From an uncultured cyanobacterium (GTDB lineage: Bacteria; Cyanobacteriota; Cyanobacteriia; Phormidesmidales; Phormidesmidaceae): a stretch of DNA of 64,000 nucleotides. Position numbers: made by a program. The DNA lies in NCBI GenBank assembly GCA_963793265.1, contig CAWBZI010000006.1, forward strand, positions 256,001 to 320,000, read 5' to 3'. Within the stretch, counting starts at the first letter, position 1; each line of letters begins with the position of its first letter. Below, one piece after another: positions 29,301 to 41,300 of this stretch.

Positions 29301-32300
29301 TAGCAAAGTGCTTGCCGTCTGTCCAACCGTAGCGCAAACACACGAACTCATTGGGCGTAGCGAGCTTTTTAACCTGACGCACCTGATTCAATTTTCAGAC
29401 GATGCGATCGCCCGCCCCACCTGCCAAAAGCTCATTCAAGAACAGCCTAACATCACCCACGCTTCGCTCCTGGGCAAGCACTTAGCCCCGCTAGGCTGGA
29501 AAAACGAACCTGCAAACTTGCTTGAAACCATCGCAACGGCCCAACTGACGAGACTACGGCTCTCCTTGCAAAAAGAAGCGTCTGTTGTGACAAGAGAACT
29601 ATCAAAAGAATCCATAAGAAAAGAGAGCATGGCCGCAACTACGCTCTCTTGATGGATCTTCAGAACAACCACAGGTGGCTTAAGTCGCTTTTATCAGCAC
29701 TAAGTCACCTTCAACTTTCGCCTCATAAGTACCTAGCGCCTCAGTCGCAGGCCCCTCAATCACCGCACCATCGGCACTAAACTTGGAGCCATGGCAAGGA
29801 CAGGCAAACTCACCCTCTGCCCACGCCACGCTACAGCCTTGATGAGTACACATAGAATCTAATGCAATCACGCCCTCTGCATTGGCCGGATCGCGAATAG
29901 CCACCACTGGCCCAGCAATAAAGCTTTTGGACGAAAGCGAACCCTCAGCATCTAGCTCAGCAACAGTGCCGAGTGCGGCAAATCCATCGTCACGAATGCT
30001 GCTATCAACTTCTTCAGCGGCGGGCGCTGTGTCCAAGTCCGCGTCAACCGCAGGGGCTTCCGCCGTTTCAGAAGATCCGCAGGCAGCTAAGGCCACTGGC
30101 AGAGAAGTTGCAACCAGTCCTAGCCCAACAAAGTTTAAAAAGTCTCGACGTTTCATCCTAGATTCACTCCTCTCAATTATTAGATGAATTTGGGCTTACG
30201 AATTTGAGCTAACAATTGCCTCGGGAACAGCCGCCTTTGCAAACCATCCCTTATAGCGCGCAGTCGCCGCTAAAACAAACAACAAATCGGCTCCGACGAC
30301 AGCCGCGATCGCCCACTCAGATCCGCCCGTGCCAAAGCCGTAGCTATGCAAGCCCGTACCTAGCACAAAGTTTACGCCATACCAGGCCATCAGCACCGCA
30401 TTAAAGGCCACAACGCTTGCCACGCTAATGCCAAAGTTGCCGATCCAGCCGACTAAACGACCGTGCAGCGGAACCAGATAACACAGCAGCGCAATCAAAG
30501 CCCATGTCTCTTTAGGATCCCAGCCCCAGAATCTTCCCCAAGAGAAGTGCGCCCAAATGCCGCCTAAAATAATGCCAGCGGTTAGCAGCAGTACGCCCAC
30601 TTGCAGCACGTTGTAGTTAAGCTGAGAGAGCAGTTGAATACGCGCCCTCGCCTGTGGAGAAAACAGATAGCTGCCGAGCGCAACGTGCCCGATCCCTAAC
30701 GCTAAAGCAAAACTTGCGTAGCTCAGCGCGATAGTCGGCACGTGAATGCTTAGCCAAAAGTTATCTCGCAAAACCGGGACTAACGGTGAAATGCTCGGGT
30801 CTAATACAGCCGGTAGGCTGTCTGCGAGAACTAGACACATCACCGACAGCGGGGCTGCTGCTAATAGATAGTATTTGGCGCGGTAGATGAGTTCAAAGGA
30901 AAGGGCGATCGCAGAAATTCCAAACCCAACCCAAACCACCGACTCGTACATATTTGTCACAGGCGGACGGCCCGCGACCTGCATTCGCAGCCAAAAGCCA
31001 TAGCTCTGCACGGCCACACCTGCCACAAATAAACCCATTGAGCCCCAGTAGAGTTCTAGCGGCTTTATCCACAGCGTCAGCAGCATTGCGACAAAGGCTA
31101 AAGCGTAGAGCTGCCAGGCTTTTGCAAAGGGATGGAAGTGATTGAAAAAGACTTCTTGCCGCATTGCGCCGCTCACCGGATACACGGTTGGGCTGAGCTG
31201 TCGCAGTCCGCTTTGCAATGATTCAGCCAGCGGGGTGAGCATCGGCAAATGATCGCTCCCTGAGAAGAAAGTTTGCTTCATGATCGTAAAGCTCGCGATG
31301 AGAGGAGAAATCGCTTCGGGGGCGTATAGCGACTGCGCTTCGCTAATGCCCATCCACTTTCCTTTAGGGTCGGTGGGGTGAGGAACGATAGCGATCGCAT
31401 TGTCGTCCACCATTTCTAGCATGAGCGTAAGGCGGTCTTCTAGTGCGATCGCCTCGCGCTCATCCCGGCTTATTTCTTCCTCGGCCAAATCTTTTCGGTG
31501 CGCTTCTCTGACCACTTCACCCAGCGCTTTATTGGTCATCAGCGTTTGAAAGGAGAAATACTTTTGGTCGGGATCTACGCCGATAATCTCCTTCAGCGGG
31601 CGATAGCTAAAGAGCACGAAATTCTCTTCATTCCAGTTGCGATTGTTTAGCCACAGCGATAAAAAAGTCTCCATAGAGCCCTCTTTTACACCATTGCGAT
31701 TATAGGTGGTCGCGCCGTGAATTTTAGCGACTGTCTCTTTAGCGATCGTATCCAGCGGCTTTTTGCGCCCGCCCTGCTGCACCACCATGGTTTCTAACGG
31801 TTCTAAAGGCGAGTGTTGAAACTGGGTAAGCGGAAGGGCAATCAGTAATAGACCCAAACAGAGGCCCACTAGGAACTTTATACTTTCAAACTTTGCAATT
31901 TTCATCAGCATCAACGACCCGAAAAGACGTTCAATAAAGGAATTTCAACTGGCACTTTTTCTACTTCTGCATCGGTAAGGACATCTGCTTCAGCACTGGC
32001 TTTAGCATCAACAGACTTCGACGGTTTCTTGAACTTCTTAGCCAAAGCACGACCGTAAAACATTGTCGCCACGCCCACAATCACCATGGTCGAGCCTAGC
32101 CAGGTAAGGCCGGTCACCCACCAGGGCTCTCGCTTTACCTGCAAGGTAGACTGGCTCAAGTCGCCTGGATTCCAAGACGCTTGGGCAATCTTCCAGCCCT
32201 TATACCAGGTGGGGTGGTTCATCCAGACGCGACGATCAGCGCGATCGCCCGAATGGGGATCAGTTAGCGACACCGCACTCGTCCACATCGCTACAGACTC

Positions 32301-38300: not shown

Positions 38301-41300
38301 ATGGAAGCTACCAGGGGCCGTGATGATCTGGCGCACCATCCACATTTTTATTGGCACTGCTCTAGTCGCCGTTGTTTTGGTTCACACCCTCGGCTCAAGC
38401 GGTCTTAACTACAACGCCATTTTGCTATGGGTCTTTTTTGGCGTCACGCTCTCTGCCCTCCTCGGGGTCGTCGCTGAAACCGGCGTTTTAGAATCGCCCC
38501 GCAAAATCTTTAATATCGGTAGTAACAAAGTTGTTGAAGGCAAAGCCGTTGGCATCGGCAAAGGTGCTTTGGTGCGTGGAATGCGCGCCGTTTGGCTACC
38601 CTCTCATATCTTTTTAGTGAGCGTGTTCGGGCTCATGCTCGTCATTCACATCTTTTTAGCCTATTACTTTCGCTAGGGGCAAATCATCATGATCTCAACC
38701 ACCGAAAATCGCAGCGCACTCTGGCGGTTATGGCTAGCCCTGATCGCTATTCTAGTAGCGGTATGGGCCACCCTACTACTGACCCGCCCTGCCGCCAAAA
38801 CTATGAGCATGACACCGCTCAGCGGGCTAATGACTCTGAAGTCGCTTGCCGCTGAGGCCGTCTCCTACGAAGCAGCTTTGGCAAACCAAAAGCCCACTTT
38901 TATAGAGTTCTACGCCGACTGGTGTACAACCTGCCAAAGCACCGCGCCAACCATCCAAAATCTCCATCAGCAGTACAGCGAGCAGATAAACTTTGTCATG
39001 CTCGATATTGACAATCCCAAGTGGGCATCTCAAATTGCCCAATACAAAGCCTCCGGCGTTCCTCAGTTCACGCTCATCGCTGCTGACCAAGCGCCAATCA
39101 ATACCTGGGTAGGCAAAGTGCCTAAGCCTATCTTCACCGAAACGTTCGAGCGACTGCTAGTAGAGAAGCCATGACTATTCTTCGCCGGTTTATTCAATTC
39201 CTAGAGTGGCTAGAAACCGCTCAAGACTTCTGCCACTTTCTAGCGCAGCCTACGGGCCTATCGCTAACCGCCGCGCTCCTTCTCTACTGCCCAATTCAGA
39301 TGCTAGGGTGCGATCGCCTCTCAGCTGCAACCCTATCGTGCACCATCGCGCTTACGCTATTTTGCCTATCAGAGCGCCCCGACTTCTAGCTTTCTATGCA
39401 GGCGACGAGTACTGATAAATCAACGCCCCTTTCACCTGCTTCAACTGCGCCCACTGTTCTGTTTGATTGATAAATCGCAGCGCGTAGTCTTGTGAAAGTG
39501 CCATTTCTGACCTGATTAACTGCTCTAGCTGAGGATCGGGCTTGTAGTTTTGGCCCATGCCTTGATAAAAACGTCGGGCGATCGCAATCACGTAAAAAGC
39601 ATGATCACCGAACCGCGCCGCCTCACACCGCACAACATACACCGCACCAATCTCATCGAGCGTCGCAAAATAATCTCCTAACTGTCTGACCTCCTCACTA
39701 GGCAAATCATGGGGAACAAACGACGCTTTATCATTTAGCTTTGCTCGCTCAGCCAGCACCAGATTCCAAACGTTCTCATGCTGCTGCCATCGCTGTTTAT
39801 AAGGTTCAGCCAGTGCAGGCTGCGCTTGATTGAGATAAAGAGAATAGGCAGAGCGACAAGCTGAAACCAACAAAGACGGATCTTTATCTATGACGAATTC
39901 CAGATGAGAAATGCAATCTTTGTTCTGTTGTTCGCTAAGCAAACGACCTAGCCAGTATCGAACCTTTGTATTATTCGGAGCCTCTGCCGCAATCTCTTGA
40001 AAAATAGGTAATATCTTTGCGTTTTCATCGAGCTGTCGAACCAATAAAGCTCTTTTAATTCTCTCTTCTATGGTTAGAGAATTGGCTTTGCTGTTCAGAT
40101 AGTCAAGGCGATCGCGCAATCTCTGCCCCGCTCCATAGCTCATCTTCCAACCCACCGAAATCTCTTTCTTCCACAGCCGATCAAGCTCCTCAGTCAAAGC
40201 ACCTGCATAGTCGCCCAGAAGAGAAGTCGCCCGCTCATCAGATTGAACTAAAACATCAGGAATTTCATACCCCAAAGCGCCTAACCGCTCACTTAAACAT
40301 GGATGCGTAGAAGCATTATCAGTTTGTTGAACCAAACGCAGCGCCAGCCAATCTTTAACCCGAGCAGGTGCTATCGAAGAGGCCAGCGCAACCATCATCT
40401 GAGTGACAAAATCATCCGGCGGCTCCGATGAATCCATCGTCTGACGACGAAAAGCCGGATAAAACTCCTCACTCAACCGCGAACTATTTACTCCCAACCA
40501 AATCAAAGCCTCAGCCTTATGCTGTGCCCCCACAATCTCAGCCGCCCGCCGATCCGCCTCATACTCCTGCGACCTGGCATGAACAAAAGAATACGCTTTA
40601 AAAAACGGCCCATACCAGCTAAAAAAGCGCTTGAACAAAAAGCCCCCACCGCCACGCTCAAACCGCTCAGCCAAATCGTACCAAGTCCGCCGAATTCGAT
40701 AAATCCAAGCGCCTACCTTGCCATCACCACCGCATAAATGCGCCAGCTCGTGCGCCATTACCGCCTCAAGCTGCTGAGGTGAAAGCGCCTGCATCAGCGG
40801 CAGTCCAACCACCAAAATATTCGTTTGCCAGCCAATAAAGCCAAGCTTGGGCAACTGCATAATCCCAGCATTGAGATCGTCGTTAAGAATGACCCGGTTA
40901 AGCTTGGGCGCTTGCAGCTTTAGCGACAAATTATCAAGCATTTCAAATAGCAAAGGCACCTGAGCCCGCTTCAGCTCAACGCCCTTTGGCGGCTTCACCC
41001 AAACAAAAAACAAGCTAGCAAAGCCTATTGCCAGCAGCAAAGCGACCATTCCAAACTGATAGAAGATCTCGGGATTGCCTGCCGCAACTATCAGCCCAAA
41101 TACTAGCCACAGTCCGCCAAATAGCAGCGCGAAAACAATCGCAATATATACATAGCCAAGGCTCGCCAGCCACCGCAAACGCCTGCGATAGTAAGCCGGG
41201 TTCCGCTGCGCTACGATCTCGATTTTTCGCACTAGCGCATCAAACGCCTCTGGGGTCGAAATCTTTCTTTTCTGAAGCTGAGCTAGCCGACGAGCCATAG

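What a model noticed while it worked through the whole genome (the two positions that open the first line are those of the whole stretch)
29680..39389. Conserved ten-gene multihaem cytochrome c cluster with its own CcsBA haem lyase, globin and Rieske protein
A divergent gene cluster encodes a Tat-signal Rieske protein, a second (NrfI-like) CcsA/CcsB system II cytochrome c synthase pair, a tail-anchored Vgb/Hmp-type globin (tandem-duplicated here), a membrane-anchored cytochrome with four CXXCH and one conserved CX4CH site, a hexahaem cytochrome, a Tll0287-type haem-c lipoprotein, a four-His membrane protein (putative dihaem b), and a membrane thioredoxin. It is a previously undescribed periplasmic/lumenal electron-transfer module of filamentous cyanobacteria, possibly for N-oxide chemistry.
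Evidence so far: Motifs counted in the proteins. 40 cyanobacterial loci from genome_contigs hold the hexahaem gene; tblastn shows g04055-g04060 in 38-40 of 40 loci and CcsA/CcsB/Rieske/Trx in 25-34 (short contigs explain misses), same order in Leptolyngbya PCC 7375, Adonisia, Hyella, Moorena, Geitlerinema. All CXXCH sites and the CWTxGCH site invariant in 15-16 orthologs; four His invariant in g04060. Housekeeping CcsB g00169, CcsA g02499, CcdA g00168 lie elsewhere. Best PDB profile hit of the hexahaem: HAO-like 6h5l, E 7.5e-8. Cytochrom_c3_2 in only 58 of 3329 cyanobacterial genomes (relatives.tsv, call 5). neighbours.tsv: Cytochrom_C_asm within two genes of Globin in at least 43 of 172 genomes of the order [...]
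(Added by a program. Inside this text positions count along the whole contig: contig position 256,001 is position 1 of the stretch shown here. "Call 12" and the like, gene names such as g00115 and contig names such as C1 are that model's own, and its searches are not shown. The text may have been shortened before it was handed on; [...] marks where a part breaks off. The agent that wrote the report below was given it as the finding of a first reader that could run no searches.)

Follow-up and report, generated by a model that had tools for sequence, protein, structure and literature searches.

The report
Membrane-wired globin and multihaem chain
A conserved cyanobacterial gene cluster builds a chain of about seventeen haem and iron-sulfur centres that runs from cytochromes outside the cell membrane to a haemoglobin tethered on its inner face; no description of such a system was found, and it probably handles nitric oxide.

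Summary
Window 29680-39389 carries ten genes in two divergent operons. They encode a PetC3-type Tat/lipoprotein Rieske, a second CcsA/CcsB pair with a membrane thioredoxin, a tail-anchored tandem FHb-type globin, a membrane-anchored pentahaem (4 CXXCH + CX4CH), a secreted hexahaem, a Tll0287/Cache_heme lipoprotein, a four-His membrane protein and a 72-aa membrane protein. Order is conserved in 40 cyanobacterial loci. The core (globin, both cytochromes, Cache_heme, four-His) is present wherever the contig reaches. The tandem globin is the usual form, not an assembly artefact. In 58 of 71 non-cyanobacterial loci its homologue lies in an ORF of at least 600 aa; where annotated, that ORF is a fusion to a cytoplasmic NAD(P)H-flavoprotein/[2Fe-2S] reductase. 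These homologues sit beside an undecahaem cytochrome (cyt5+cyt6 fused, 70/71), a Cache_heme protein (69/71) and a globin (45/71). The cluster is therefore the cyanobacterial, reductase-less, globin-tethered form of a multi-phylum transmembrane haem chain. H-NOX, NasT/NasS-like and nitrobindin-like neighbours in a minority of those loci point to nitric oxide. Function and electron direction remain inferred.

The parts
29680..30156 (-). PetC3-type Rieske [2Fe-2S] protein with a twin-arginine signal and a lipobox (periplasmic lipoprotein)
   Evidence: PF00355 E 3.4e-12. Best PDB match 5cxm (PetC3) E 1e-20. Cluster ligands C103/H105 and C119..C121/H122 are conserved in 26 sequences. Present in 24 of 26 loci that reach this position. 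A 58%-identical paralogue lies at G000:C6:223531-223983.
30196..31914 (-). Second CcsA-type cytochrome c synthase subunit (572 aa, with about 290 aa of N-terminal extension)
   Evidence: PF01578 102 bits. TIGR03144 scores 153 bits, below its 187.6 cut-off. The Trp-rich WWD stretch (W454-W471) and H391/H484/H523 are conserved and aligned with His in the housekeeping copy (36% identity). Housekeeping copy at C2:796886.
31911..33818 (-). Second CcsB/ResB-type subunit (635 aa); overlaps ccsA by 4 nt
   Evidence: PF05140 53 bits, partial match. H88 and H103 are invariant in 29 sequences; 27% identity to the housekeeping copy, which lies at C1:171312.
33819..34402 (.). 584-bp AT-rich divergent intergenic region (presumed promoters of both operons)
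   Evidence: GC 0.42 against about 0.52 in the genes. No GTAN8TAC (NtcA-type) site here. Such sites occur in 11 of 27 orthologous spacers against 5.6 expected.
34403..35539 (+). Tail-anchored tandem globin (two FHb/Vgb-type domains, a linker and a C-terminal transmembrane tail); no signal peptide, so the globins face the cytoplasm
   Evidence: Two PF00042 stretches. Best PDB matches are Methylacidiphilum HGb 3s1i (4.5e-22), Vitreoscilla Hb 1vhb and flavohaemoglobins. The proximal-His motif and the distal Tyr/Gln positions are invariant in both domains, and the hydrophobic tail is present in 22 of 22 di-globins and 6 of 7 single-domain forms. The two repeats are 96% identical over 300 nt. These are the only PF00042 globins in the genome.
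35574..36254 (+). Membrane-anchored pentahaem cytochrome c (4 CXXCH + CX4CH); corresponds to the N-terminal half of the undecahaem of other phyla
   Evidence: Motifs. All five sites plus six further His (H64, 99, 128, 158, 175, 177) are at least 95% conserved in 38 sequences. The profile matches the N-terminal half of 70 of 70 multihaem ORFs, E about 1e-55. No PDB relative at E 0.01.
36251..37111 (+). Secreted hexahaem cytochrome c; overlaps cyt5 by 4 nt; corresponds to the C-terminal half of the undecahaem
   Evidence: 6 CXXCH. Six further conserved His (H50, 94, 132, 152, 161, 215) in 40 sequences. PDB profile hits: 6h5l 8e-8 and NrfA 1.3e-4. The profile matches the C-terminal half of 70 of 70 multihaem ORFs, E about 1e-74.
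37177..37890 (+). Tll0287-like (sCache_heme) monohaem c lipoprotein; the true start is probably about 17 codons downstream of the GTG listed
   Evidence: PF11845 E 1.9e-18. Orthologues align from residue 16-19 onward. Model pLDDT 62.7; top Foldseek hit 5b82 (Tll0287) E 3.7e-6, then GSU0935 and Cache sensor domains. No conserved Cys besides the lipobox and CXXCH.
38059..38676 (+). Four-His membrane protein, predicted di-haem b transmembrane electron carrier (N-in, 5 TM, C-out)
   Evidence: H95/H109 and H183/H197 (HX13H twice) are invariant. Sub-threshold Pfam matches among 22 orthologues: Ni_hydr_CYTB in 19, DUF4405 in 17. Distant relatives keep all four His. In 58 of 71 loci the relative is part of an ORF of at least 600 aa; the annotated examples are C-terminal fusions to NAD(P)H flavoprotein/[2Fe-2S] reductases. 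One relative is fused N-terminally to the undecahaem (L130).
38689..39174 (+). Membrane-anchored thioredoxin (CXXC), presumed apocytochrome disulfide reductase
   Evidence: PF00085 E 9.6e-18. C79/C82 conserved in 32 sequences. Present in 34 of 38 loci that reach this position. There is only one CcdA/DsbD_TM gene in the genome, next to the housekeeping ccsB.
39171..39389 (+). Conserved 72-aa hydrophobic protein of unknown role; overlaps trx by 4 nt
   Evidence: Present in 32 of 38 loci that reach this position. A Gly-Cys-Asp motif is nearly invariant. Non-consensus fraction by codon position is 0.20/0.11/0.49, the pattern of a coding sequence under purifying selection. No Pfam match.

Best explanation
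The cluster encodes a self-contained haem chain across a membrane, plus the machinery to build it. CcsB, CcsA and the membrane thioredoxin attach 12 c-haems to three exported proteins: the anchored pentahaem, the soluble hexahaem and the Cache_heme lipoprotein. The two multihaem proteins together are a split form of an undecahaem cytochrome conserved in many phyla, and they act as an all-bis-His wire. The four-His protein holds two b-haems, one near each membrane face, and carries electrons through the membrane. On its cytoplasmic side sits the tail-anchored tandem FHb-type globin. In other phyla that position is taken by an NAD(P)H-flavoprotein/[2Fe-2S] reductase fused to the b-cytochrome, and a globin is a separate neighbour. 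In the cyanobacterial form no cluster gene encodes an NAD(P)H reductase. I infer that the chain is fed from the outer side, through the PetC3-type Rieske and/or the anchored pentahaem drawing on quinol or periplasmic carriers. I also infer that it re-reduces the globin, which acts as a membrane-wired NO dioxygenase-type enzyme, while the Cache_heme protein is the periplasmic end of the wire. What the calls established: gene content, motifs, conservation, orthology across phyla and the fusions. Inferred: haem b binding, topology, the contact between globin and b-cytochrome, the direction of flow, the plasma-membrane location, and NO as the substrate.
For: Discrete conserved unit: the order is the same in 40 loci while the window's flanking genes are found in 0 and 1 of the 40; the core is present in 34/34 to 39/39 loci that reach it; 4-nt overlaps join ccsB/ccsA, cyt5/cyt6 and trx/small. 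Dedicated maturation: cyt5 and cyt6 are the only ORFs with 3 or more CXXCH among 15,063 ORFs of the genome, and a second CcsA/CcsB retains the WWD stretch and His features. Wire: six conserved non-motif His for five haems in cyt5 and six for six in cyt6. Transmembrane carrier: HX13H occurs twice on two predicted helices; the basic loops 69-83 and 142-176 give an N-in topology by the positive-inside rule (sequence); 19 and 17 of 22 orthologues give sub-threshold hits to cytochrome b561 and DUF4405. DUF4405 was shown to bind haem b and was proposed as a transmembrane electron carrier (bioRxiv 10.1101/2024.03.13.584918, passages read). In 58 of 71 non-cyanobacterial loci the homologue lies in an ORF of at least 600 aa; 12 of the 15 match-bearing ORFs annotated, and 8 of 20 database relatives sampled, are Pyr_redox_2/Fer2_BFD fusions. 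One homologue (L130) is fused to the undecahaem at its C-terminal end, which fits N-in/C-out. Orthology of the module: of the 71 loci, 70 hold a multihaem ORF, and each of these 70 matches cyt5 in its N-terminal half and cyt6 in its C-terminal half, CX4CH site included; 69 hold a Cache_heme gene; 45 hold a globin, either 3/3-type (26) or 2/2-type (19). The globin is kept although its family changes. Globin type: the closest solved relatives are single-domain and flavohaemoglobin globins. Both domains keep the haem-pocket residues and the tail anchor in 22 of 22. An extra globin gene lies next to or close behind the four-His gene in L033, L040, L066 and G298. NO link: H-NOX in 3 of 71 loci, ANTAR/NasT-like in 7, NMT1_2/NasS-like in 10, NasA-like in 3, nitrobindin-like in 2. 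Cache_heme domains fused to signalling modules behave as NO sensors (PMC12889525, abstract and passages). PetC3 is a periplasmic plasma-membrane lipoprotein, Em +135 mV, of unknown function (PMC10172866 and PMC12341915, passages).
Against: No biochemical or expression data exist for any member. No RNA run was listed. The four-His protein fails the Pfam thresholds, its model is mediocre (pLDDT 67.8), and fold searches returned only generic helical bundles. In the fused relatives electrons must enter from NAD(P)H in the cytoplasm and flow outward; my model proposes the opposite direction for the cyanobacterial form. In those relatives the globin often has its own Fer2-FAD-NAD reductase (18 of 71 loci), so it need not be wired to the b-cytochrome there. 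26 of the 71 loci show no globin within 6 kb. Nitrogen- or NO-linked neighbours occur in a minority of the 71 loci, and in none of the 14 cyanobacterial loci whose flanks were annotated, nor in the window. No consistent NtcA site was found. A Rieske centre near +135 mV is a poor donor to typical low-potential bis-His haems. According to the preprint, stand-alone Cache_heme proteins with Cys/His ligation bind NO poorly; the axial ligand here is unknown. The Rieske is missing from 2 of 26 loci and the thioredoxin from 4 of 38.
Confidence: 0.45

Rival explanations
1. Periplasmic N-oxide-converting enzyme. The hexahaem or pentahaem cytochrome is itself the catalyst, an HAO/NrfA/c554-like reductase or oxidase of hydroxylamine, nitrite or NO. 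The other parts merely feed or drain it.
For: The hexahaem profile hits an HAO-like protein (6h5l, E 8e-8) and NrfA (1.3e-4). Pfam reports Cytochrome_C554 and Multi-haem_cyto matches. The unusual CX4CH site is conserved across phyla. Nitrogen- and NO-linked neighbours occur in some phyla.
Against: There are exactly as many conserved extra His as haems (six for six in cyt6; six for five in cyt5), which leaves no obvious open coordination site. There is no CXXCK motif. The PDB match covers only the generic haem-packing core, query residues 48-187. At 286 aa, cyt6 is about half the size of HAO or NrfA.
Confidence: 0.12
2. Outward electron export, NOX- or MsrQ-like. Cytoplasmic reductant is passed through the b-haems to the periplasmic wire, either to reduce an extracytoplasmic acceptor (Fe(III) or chelates, oxidised proteins, O2) or to dump excess photosynthetic electrons. 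The tethered globin would be the cytoplasmic entry point or an O2/NO-gated valve.
For: In 58 of 71 relatives the b-cytochrome lies in an ORF of at least 600 aa, and the annotated examples are fusions to an NAD(P)H reductase, which fixes the direction as outward there. DUF4405, PepSY and MsrQ relatives serve extracytosolic reduction (preprint passages). A ChaN-type haem/iron-uptake-family gene accompanies the module in L040, L065 and L066. Carriers are mostly marine benthic strains, judging by the record titles.
Against: The cyanobacterial cluster has no cytoplasmic reductase. A globin as an electron-input module has no precedent that I know of (recalled). No outer-membrane conduit gene is conserved next to the cluster.
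Confidence: 0.15
3. A minimal Rieske/cytochrome b-type quinol oxidoreductase. The four-His protein plus the Rieske form a Qo-like site, and the multihaem cytochromes play the part of cytochrome c1 or f, as in the multihaem bc complexes of anammox bacteria.
For: Rieske, a di-haem b protein with HX13H on two helices, and c-type cytochromes are encoded together. The Rieske resembles the b6f/PetC lineage.
Against: None of the 22 four-His orthologues matched a cytochrome b/b6 Pfam family, even at E 10. The Rieske is a lipoprotein without a transmembrane anchor. It is a cyanobacterial addition, absent from the neighbours annotated in 40 of the 71 non-cyanobacterial loci, and it is missing from 2 of 26 cyanobacterial loci.
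Confidence: 0.08
4. A redox or gas sensing device rather than an enzyme. The Cache_heme protein and the globin report periplasmic and cytoplasmic NO/O2/redox state to an unknown output.
For: The Cache_heme fold resembles sensor domains, and signalling-fused members sense NO. Regulators sit nearby in some loci: LysR in 14 of 40, plus GGDEF and histidine kinases.
Against: No output domain is fused or conserved. Twelve c-haems with a dedicated synthase are a costly build for a sensor. The neighbouring regulators differ between lineages.
Confidence: 0.05

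Closest known systems
Flavohaemoglobin (Hmp/FHP) and single-domain globins Vgb and Cgb acting as NO dioxygenases
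   Same: The globin domains belong to the same family: best PDB hits are 3s1i, 1vhb, 1cqx, 2wy4 and 1gvh. The proximal His and the distal Tyr/Gln positions are invariant (the names of these positions are recalled).
   Different: There is no FNR-type reductase domain (NF009805 scores 165 bits against a 432 cut-off). The domain is doubled, carries a C-terminal membrane anchor, and is encoded with a transmembrane b-cytochrome and 12 c-haems.
Bjgb-Flp within the narK-bjgb-flp-nasC operon of Bradyrhizobium (PMC4724949; search listing and start of abstract only)
   Same: A single-domain globin is encoded with a flavoprotein electron donor in a nitrate-assimilation context to remove NO. The proteobacterial forms of the present module also pair a globin with NAD(P)H flavoproteins, and some sit beside NasT/NasS/NasA-like genes.
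   Different: That system has no membrane b-cytochrome, undecahaem or Cache_heme protein. The cyanobacterial cluster has no flavoprotein and no nitrate-assimilation neighbours.
DUF4405 / PepSY-like / MsrQ-type transmembrane cytochromes b (bioRxiv 10.1101/2024.03.13.584918; passages read)
   Same: Small membrane proteins with four conserved His, proposed to carry electrons across the cytoplasmic membrane to extracytosolic partners. There are sub-threshold Pfam matches to DUF4405 and to cytochrome b561.
   Different: The four-His protein scores below the family thresholds. Its partners are c-type multihaem and Cache_heme proteins and a globin rather than flavinylated proteins. It has five predicted helices, against six reported for DUF4405.
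Dedicated System II synthases of Wolinella (NrfI for CXXCK, CcsA1 for CX15CH) (recalled, not read here)
   Same: An additional CcsA/CcsB set is encoded next to its presumed multihaem clients, one of which has a non-standard site (CX4CH).
   Different: Here CcsB and CcsA are separate proteins. Specificity is untested. The same CX4CH site occurs in Proteobacteria, where no CcsBA pair appeared among the annotated neighbours of the module and one locus has a CcmF gene beside it. The extra set may instead serve a different compartment or a high haem load.
PetC3 of Synechocystis (PDB 5cxm; Veit et al. 2016, known only through citing papers)
   Same: Best PDB match (E 1e-20).
   Different: The genome has a second PetC3-like gene (58% identity) paired with a ChaN gene, so the cluster copy is a paralogue recruited to this module.
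Hydroxylamine-ubiquinone redox module and Nrf systems (HAO/c554/cM552; NrfA/NrfH) (recalled)
   Same: A membrane-anchored small multihaem plus a soluble multihaem of the HAO/NrfA haem-packing superfamily.
   Different: No catalytic haem signature. cyt5 has no NapC/NrfH Pfam match. The two proteins are halves of one undecahaem.

Membership tests
System II cytochrome c synthase CcsA (PF01578 / TIGR03144) | Family profile match above threshold | tested here: met
   PF01578 scores 102.4 bits against a 29.9 cut-off. The NCBIfam equivalog TIGR03144 scores 153 bits, below its 187.6 cut-off, so this is a divergent paralogue.
System II cytochrome c synthase CcsA (PF01578 / TIGR03144) | Trp-rich WWD motif flanked by conserved His | tested here: met
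   W454-W471 and H391/H484/H523 are at least 95% conserved in 27 orthologues and aligned with W and H of the housekeeping CcsA.
CcsB/ResB (PF05140) | Family profile match and a conserved transmembrane His | tested here: met
   53.1 bits against a 24.6 cut-off, but only profile positions 198-272 of 486 are matched. H88 and H103 are invariant in 29 sequences.
NrfI-like substrate-specific haem lyase | Required specifically for a non-CXXCH haem site | not testable with these tools
   This needs genetics or biochemistry. The CX4CH site also exists in Proteobacteria, where no CcsBA pair appeared among the annotated neighbours.
PetC3-type Rieske lipoprotein | Rieske CXH...CXXH cluster motifs | tested here: met
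   C103/H105 and C119/C121/H122 are conserved; PF00355 match.
PetC3-type Rieske lipoprotein | Tat signal plus lipobox instead of a transmembrane anchor; closest to PetC3 rather than b6f PetC1 | tested here: met
   The N-terminus has a twin-arginine motif followed by a lipobox Cys26. The best PDB hit is 5cxm (1e-20), ahead of b6f PetC (3.9e-14). The PetC equivalog scores 65 bits against a 250 cut-off.
Flavohaemoglobin (NF009805) | Globin domain fused to an FAD/NAD(P)H reductase domain | tested here: not met
   Only the globin part matches (profile positions 10-135 of 399; 165 bits against a 432 cut-off). No reductase domain was found in the cluster.
FHb-type single-domain globin (PF00042) | Globin fold with the proximal His and the distal Tyr/Gln positions | tested here: met
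   PF00042 E 1.3e-34, two stretches. These residues are invariant in both domains of 22 orthologues. The naming of the positions is recalled.
Tll0287-like / sCache_heme (PF11845) | Profile match, CXXCH motif and Cache-like fold | tested here: met
   67.7 bits against a 24.1 cut-off. C198/C201/H202 are invariant. Foldseek top hit is 5b82, E 3.7e-6.
Tll0287-like / sCache_heme (PF11845) | Cys/His axial ligation as in Tll0287 itself | tested here: not met
   There is no conserved Cys other than the lipobox Cys48 and the CXXCH pair. The sixth ligand is unknown; H73, H205, H208, M124 and M223 are conserved candidates.
DUF4405 (PF14358) / prokaryotic cytochrome b561 (PF01292) | Profile match above the gathering threshold | tested here: not met
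   The best E-values among 22 orthologues are 7.6e-4 (DUF4405, 17 members) and 1.2e-3 (Ni_hydr_CYTB, 19 members), all below the cut-offs. The protein may work like these families but is not filed as a member.
DUF4405 (PF14358) / prokaryotic cytochrome b561 (PF01292) | Four conserved His on transmembrane helices able to bind two haems b | tested here: met
   H95/H109 and H183/H197 are invariant in 39 close sequences and in all 12 sequences of the distant-relative alignment A6. Haem binding itself was not tested.
Cytochrome b / b6 of Rieske-cytochrome b complexes | Match to the cytochrome b N-terminal family | tested here: not met
   No such family appeared among the matches of 22 orthologues at E up to 10. 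Cytochrome b6 (1vf5_A) appeared only at Foldseek E 2.2.
HAO / NrfA catalytic multihaem cytochromes | A catalytic haem with an open or unusual axial position (CXXCK, or a five-coordinate haem) | tested here: inconclusive
   No CXXCK motif. Six conserved extra His for six haems argue for bis-His ligation throughout, but ligation cannot be read from sequence alone.
NapC/NrfH quinol dehydrogenases | Profile match (Cytochrom_NNT) | tested here: not met
   cyt5 matches only Cytochrom_c3_2, MtrC-like and c7 models. It has an N-terminal anchor and multiple haems, so an analogous role is not excluded.

The most novel reading that the evidence does not exclude
A haemoglobin serves as the catalytic terminus of a membrane electron-transport chain. 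The tail-anchored tandem globin is reduced across the membrane by a 2 b-haem plus 11 c-haem wire, fed from the quinol pool or from periplasmic carriers through a PetC3-type Rieske. This would make a quinol- or cytochrome-driven NO dioxygenase (or O2-reducing oxidase) that needs no NAD(P)H. The cyanobacterial cluster would be one form of an ancient multi-phylum 'b-cytochrome / undecahaem / Cache_heme / globin' NO-handling machine, not described in the literature searched, that acts on both sides of the membrane.
Probability: 0.25. Interest if true: 0.85.

Novelty: new variant of a known kind. Interest (0 to 1): 0.75.

Why it matters
Multihaem cytochromes c are rare in cyanobacteria; the marker gene was found in 6 of 401 sampled genomes. 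The function of PetC3, of stand-alone Cache_heme proteins and of most bacterial single-domain globins is still open. This cluster puts all three into one conserved unit with a transmembrane b-cytochrome, and its homologues in Proteobacteria, Acidobacteriota, Verrucomicrobiota, Planctomycetota and Gemmatimonadota carry an NAD(P)H reductase fused to that cytochrome. That gives a concrete, testable proposal for how NO, or another small oxidant, is handled on both faces of the membrane. It also suggests why some cyanobacteria keep a second cytochrome c synthase, and it offers culturable test organisms (Neptuniibacter, Marinobacter and Hahella relatives; Synechococcus PCC 7335; Leptolyngbya PCC 7375). 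If the globin really is the electron sink of a membrane chain, that would be a new way of powering a haemoglobin enzyme.

Tried and rejected
(1) Fold of the four-His protein: the AF2 model has pLDDT 67.8. Foldseek against the PDB gave no hit at E 0.001. VIA wide gave only generic helical bundles, Z at most 9.9. A profile search against PDB sequences returned only spurious PPR-repeat hits. The ESM Atlas returned only unnamed cyanobacterial clusters and one mainly Myxococcota cluster. No fold assignment follows from any of this.
(2) Complex prediction of the four-His protein with haems and the second globin domain plus tail: no verdict (score 0.00, controls not run). This is not evidence either way.
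(3) RNA evidence: no RNA holder was listed for 34403-38676.
(4) Regulation: NtcA-type GTAN8TAC sites occur in 11 of 27 divergent spacers against 5.6 expected from shuffles, with none in the window. The shared 10-mers are A/T runs. No regulator could be assigned.
(5) cyt5 and Tll0287-like profiles against PDB sequences: no hit at E 0.01.
(6) The five non-cyanobacterial loci from the first scan (L041-L045) are unrelated deca- or poly-haem clusters that share only generic CXXCH similarity.
(7) The searches with the four-His profile and with CcsA listed only cyanobacterial or unnamed proteins among the top 120, so they gave no outgroup.
(8) 'CX4CH explains the extra CcsBA' was rejected as a sufficient reason, because the site is conserved in phyla where no CcsBA pair appeared among the annotated neighbours.
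(9) 'The four-His protein stands alone in G074' was rejected. That locus is an IS-disrupted remnant of the cluster: transposase genes, a split ccsA, and no cytochrome or globin genes.
(10) Nothing else in the 64-kb window looked functionally linked.

Full report
WHAT IS THERE. Window 29680-39389 holds ten ORFs in two divergent operons separated by a 584-bp AT-rich spacer.

The leftward operon encodes:
- a CcsB/ResB-like protein (635 aa);
- a CcsA-like protein (572 aa, overlapping ccsB by 4 nt);
- a 158-aa Rieske protein.

The rightward operon encodes:
- a 378-aa tandem globin;
- a 226-aa cytochrome with four CXXCH sites and one CX4CH site (cyt5);
- a 286-aa cytochrome with six CXXCH sites (cyt6, overlapping cyt5 by 4 nt);
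- a Tll0287-like protein with one CXXCH;
- a 205-aa membrane protein with no family match;
- a membrane thioredoxin;
- a 72-aa hydrophobic protein (overlapping trx by 4 nt).

Family assignments come and motif counts. The Rieske has a twin-arginine signal followed by a lipobox, and the Tll0287-like protein also has a lipobox. cyt5 and the thioredoxin have N-terminal anchors, and cyt6 has a cleavable-looking signal. The globin has no signal and ends in a hydrophobic tail. These features were read from the sequences and the hydropathy scan.

IS IT MORE THAN CHANCE? A pattern scan with the hexahaem returned 45 loci, 40 of them cyanobacterial. By tblastn over those 40, the cluster genes are present in 25 to 40 loci, while the window's two flanking genes are found in 0 and 1.

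Counting only loci whose contig reaches the expected position gives:
- globin 34/34, cyt5 38/38, Tll0287-like 39/39, four-His 38/38;
- CcsA 26/26, CcsB 28/29, Rieske 24/26;
- thioredoxin 34/38, small protein 32/38.

All haem-binding Cys and His, the Rieske ligands, the thioredoxin CXXC and the four His of the membrane protein are at least 95% conserved. The 72-aa ORF shows the codon-position pattern of a real gene, with non-consensus fractions of 0.20/0.11/0.49. The genome holds a housekeeping CcsA, a housekeeping CcsB and a single CcdA elsewhere. cyt5 and cyt6 are the only ORFs with three or more CXXCH among 15,063 ORFs, so the second synthase has obvious clients.

THE GLOBIN. The two domains are 96% identical over 300 nt. 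The tandem form is the rule in other genomes: 27 of 37 loci with a globin ORF have two domains, 7 have one and 3 are ambiguous. In those genomes the two domains differ more (83-91% against 98.5% identity to the window's first domain). The window therefore shows recent homogenisation, not an assembly artefact. Both domains keep the haem-pocket residues, and all 22 aligned di-globins, plus 6 of 7 single-domain forms, end in the hydrophobic tail. The closest solved structures are single-domain and flavohaemoglobin-type globins. No reductase domain is present. These two domains are the only PF00042 globins in the genome.

THE FOUR-HIS PROTEIN. Two His pairs, each spaced HX13H, lie on two predicted helices (H95/H109 and H183/H197). 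Strongly basic loops at 69-83 and 142-176 predict an N-in, five-helix, C-out topology with one haem near each membrane face (inference). Fold searches were uninformative. Of 22 orthologues, 19 and 17 give sub-threshold matches to prokaryotic cytochrome b561 and to DUF4405. A DUF4405 protein has been shown to bind haem b and was proposed as a transmembrane electron carrier (bioRxiv 10.1101/2024.03.13.584918; passages read).

A profile search of 1.84 billion representatives found 213 relatives at E 0.001, of which 32 reach 1e-10. Of 20 sampled, 8 are C-terminal domains of Pyr_redox_2 / BFD-[2Fe-2S] proteins (most also with Rubredoxin_C). Two follow cNMP-binding, BFD and FNR-like domains. The standalone distant relatives keep all four His.

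THE SAME MODULE IN OTHER PHYLA. A scan with the distant relatives returned 71 non-cyanobacterial loci. Going by record titles, they come from Gamma-, Alpha- and Betaproteobacteria, Acidobacteriota, Opitutaceae, Planctomycetota, Gemmatimonadota, Binatia and one Actinomycetota MAG. Within 6 kb of the match:
- 70 of 71 hold an ORF with at least six CXXCH;
- 69 hold a Tll0287-like gene;
- 45 hold a globin (26 of the 3/3 type, 19 of the 2/2 type);
- 44 hold all three;
- in 58 the four-His domain is part of an ORF of at least 600 aa.

Pfam confirmed the reductase fusions, the Tll0287-like proteins and both kinds of globin in the loci examined. All 70 multihaem ORFs match the cyt5 profile in their N-terminal half (E about 1e-55) and the cyt6 profile in their C-terminal half (E about 1e-74). 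One example shows 4 CXXCH, one CX4CH and 6 CXXCH. The window's cyt5 and cyt6 are therefore a split undecahaem. In one Gemmatimonadota locus the four-His domain is fused in front of the undecahaem, which fits a C-terminus on the outside.

Neighbours that point to nitrogen oxides occur in a minority of the 71 loci: H-NOX in 3, ANTAR/NasT-like in 7, NMT1_2/NasS- or NrtA-like in 10, NasA-like in 3 and nitrobindin-like in 2. An FNR-like reductase accompanies the 2/2 globins (18 of 71), and a monohaem cytochrome c is present in 32 of 71.

WHAT IS SPECIAL IN CYANOBACTERIA. The cyanobacterial form differs from the others in these ways:
- no NAD(P)H reductase of either kind;
- a globin that is FHb-type, usually doubled, and tail-anchored;
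- an undecahaem split into an anchored and a soluble half;
- its own CcsB, CcsA and thioredoxin;
- an added PetC3-type Rieske and a 72-aa protein.

The Rieske's best solved relative is PetC3 (5cxm, E 1e-20). Papers that cite the original study describe PetC3 as a periplasmic lipoprotein of the plasma membrane, Em +135 mV, of unknown function (passages). The genome has a second PetC3-like gene (58% identity) next to a ChaN-family gene.

The module is rare and patchy. The four-His gene was found in 6 of 401 sampled genomes of the phylum, in six genera. One of these is an IS-riddled remnant, and one shows only a partial four-His match with an in-frame stop and no hexahaem match.

MECHANISM. The calls established the gene content, the conservation, the orthology across phyla, the domain fusions and the motif inventory.

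Inferred chain: 12 c-haems on the outer side (an 11-haem bis-His wire plus the Cache_heme protein), two b-haems through the membrane, and the globins on the cytoplasmic face, with the Rieske as an additional outer-side centre. That makes about 17 redox centres.

In the fused forms the flow must start at NAD(P)H and run outward. The cyanobacterial form encodes no cytoplasmic donor, tethers the globin to the membrane, and adds a Rieske. The reading I favour (confidence 0.45) is therefore that the chain is fed from the outer side and keeps the globin reduced for NO dioxygenase-type chemistry. The opposite direction, electron export, remains a serious rival (0.15).

The multihaem cytochromes are unlikely to be the catalysts, because they have just enough conserved extra His for bis-His ligation.

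The Cache_heme protein lacks the Cys ligand of Tll0287. In the recent preprint, signalling-fused family members behave as NO sensors while Cys/His stand-alone members look like redox proteins (PMC12889525; abstract and passages). Which of the two this one resembles is open.

COMPARISON AND NOVELTY. Every part belongs to, or resembles, a known family; the membership table gives the details. I found no description of the assembly.
- Five searches returned no paper: multiheme cytochrome + cyanobacteria + Leptolyngbya; Tll0287 + multiheme; multiheme + cyanobacterial genomes + cytochrome c; cyanobacteri + multiheme + globin + Rieske; and, as an all-three combination, decaheme + nitrate assimilation + globin.
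- The search cyanobacteri + multi-heme cytochrome + hydroxylamine oxidoreductase returned two papers whose titles and abstracts concern other subjects.
- The PetC3, DUF4405 and DUF3365 searches led to papers on the single parts only. The Cache_heme preprint contains neither 'multiheme' nor 'globin'.
- Subscription-only literature, including the original PetC3 paper, was not searchable. The supplements of the preprints were not seen and may list such gene neighbourhoods.

Earlier notes of this scan describe the same module in other genomes and reach a similar reading (e1-2767033, e1-1443508, e1-4060638, e1-3079408). I read them only. They are not independent evidence.

I rate the finding as a new variant of a known kind: a transmembrane di-haem-b electron-transfer module with multihaem partners. 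It carries an unusual and testable twist, a membrane-wired haemoglobin.

Noticed in passing
L013:13933-14859 and equivalents (not in the window): A pentapeptide-repeat protein of about 308 aa lies next to the module in 24 of 40 cyanobacterial loci, and inside it in L034 and L040. In the window's genome the best homologue (40% identity) is on another contig (C4:651634-652551).
   Followed up: partly
G000:C6:223531-224997 (about 32 kb upstream of the window start); L040:4126-5486; L065:4250-5503; L066:3857-4735: A PetC3-like Rieske gene is followed directly by a ChaN-family (PF04187, haem-binding uptake) gene in the window's genome and in L040 and L065. In L066 a ChaN gene lies at the far end of the module, beside the homologue of the small gene. 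A Rieske-ChaN gene pair may be a conserved unit in its own right.
   Followed up: partly
L065 (G074:C1:1394000-1411000): A decayed copy of the cluster. CcsB, a split CcsA, Rieske, ChaN, thioredoxin and the four-His gene survive, but the cytochromes and the globin are gone and three transposase ORFs sit in their place.
   Followed up: yes
L033:4591-5139; L040:12801-13331; L066:5831-6361; G298:C29:11809-12117: Some lineages carry an extra single globin (about 176-182 aa) close to the four-His gene. In the three copies read it has no membrane tail but a conserved C-terminal extension; the G298 copy was seen only as a Pfam match.
   Followed up: partly
window 34412-34711 and 34949-35248: The two globin repeats are 96% identical in DNA here, whereas the two domains differ much more in other genomes. 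This suggests recent gene conversion or re-duplication in this lineage.
   Followed up: partly
L130:5538-7745: In a Gemmatimonadota MAG the four-His domain and the undecahaem cytochrome are one 735-aa protein, without a reductase domain.
   Followed up: partly
L108:9091-11079: A CcmF gene (System I haem lyase) lies directly after the globin of the module in one gammaproteobacterial locus. It may be a dedicated maturation paralogue, analogous to the extra CcsBA in cyanobacteria.
   Followed up: no
L068:6687-7226; L070:6643-7182; L069: In Thermoanaerobaculia the standalone four-His gene and its Tll0287-like neighbour sit beside an H-NOX (haem-NO-binding) gene on the opposite strand.
   Followed up: partly
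window 25534-26709: An NTF2-like gene (25534-25965) and a helical carotenoid protein gene (Carot_N, 26179-26709) lie side by side, like the two halves of an orange carotenoid protein encoded separately.
   Followed up: no
window 16937-21068: A multi-subunit Mrp-type cation/proton antiporter operon lies on the minus strand, next to a SulP/STAS transporter gene (21138-22817).
   Followed up: no
window 37177-37230: The GTG start listed for the Tll0287-like gene is probably too far upstream. Orthologues begin at about residue 16-19 of this ORF.
   Followed up: partly
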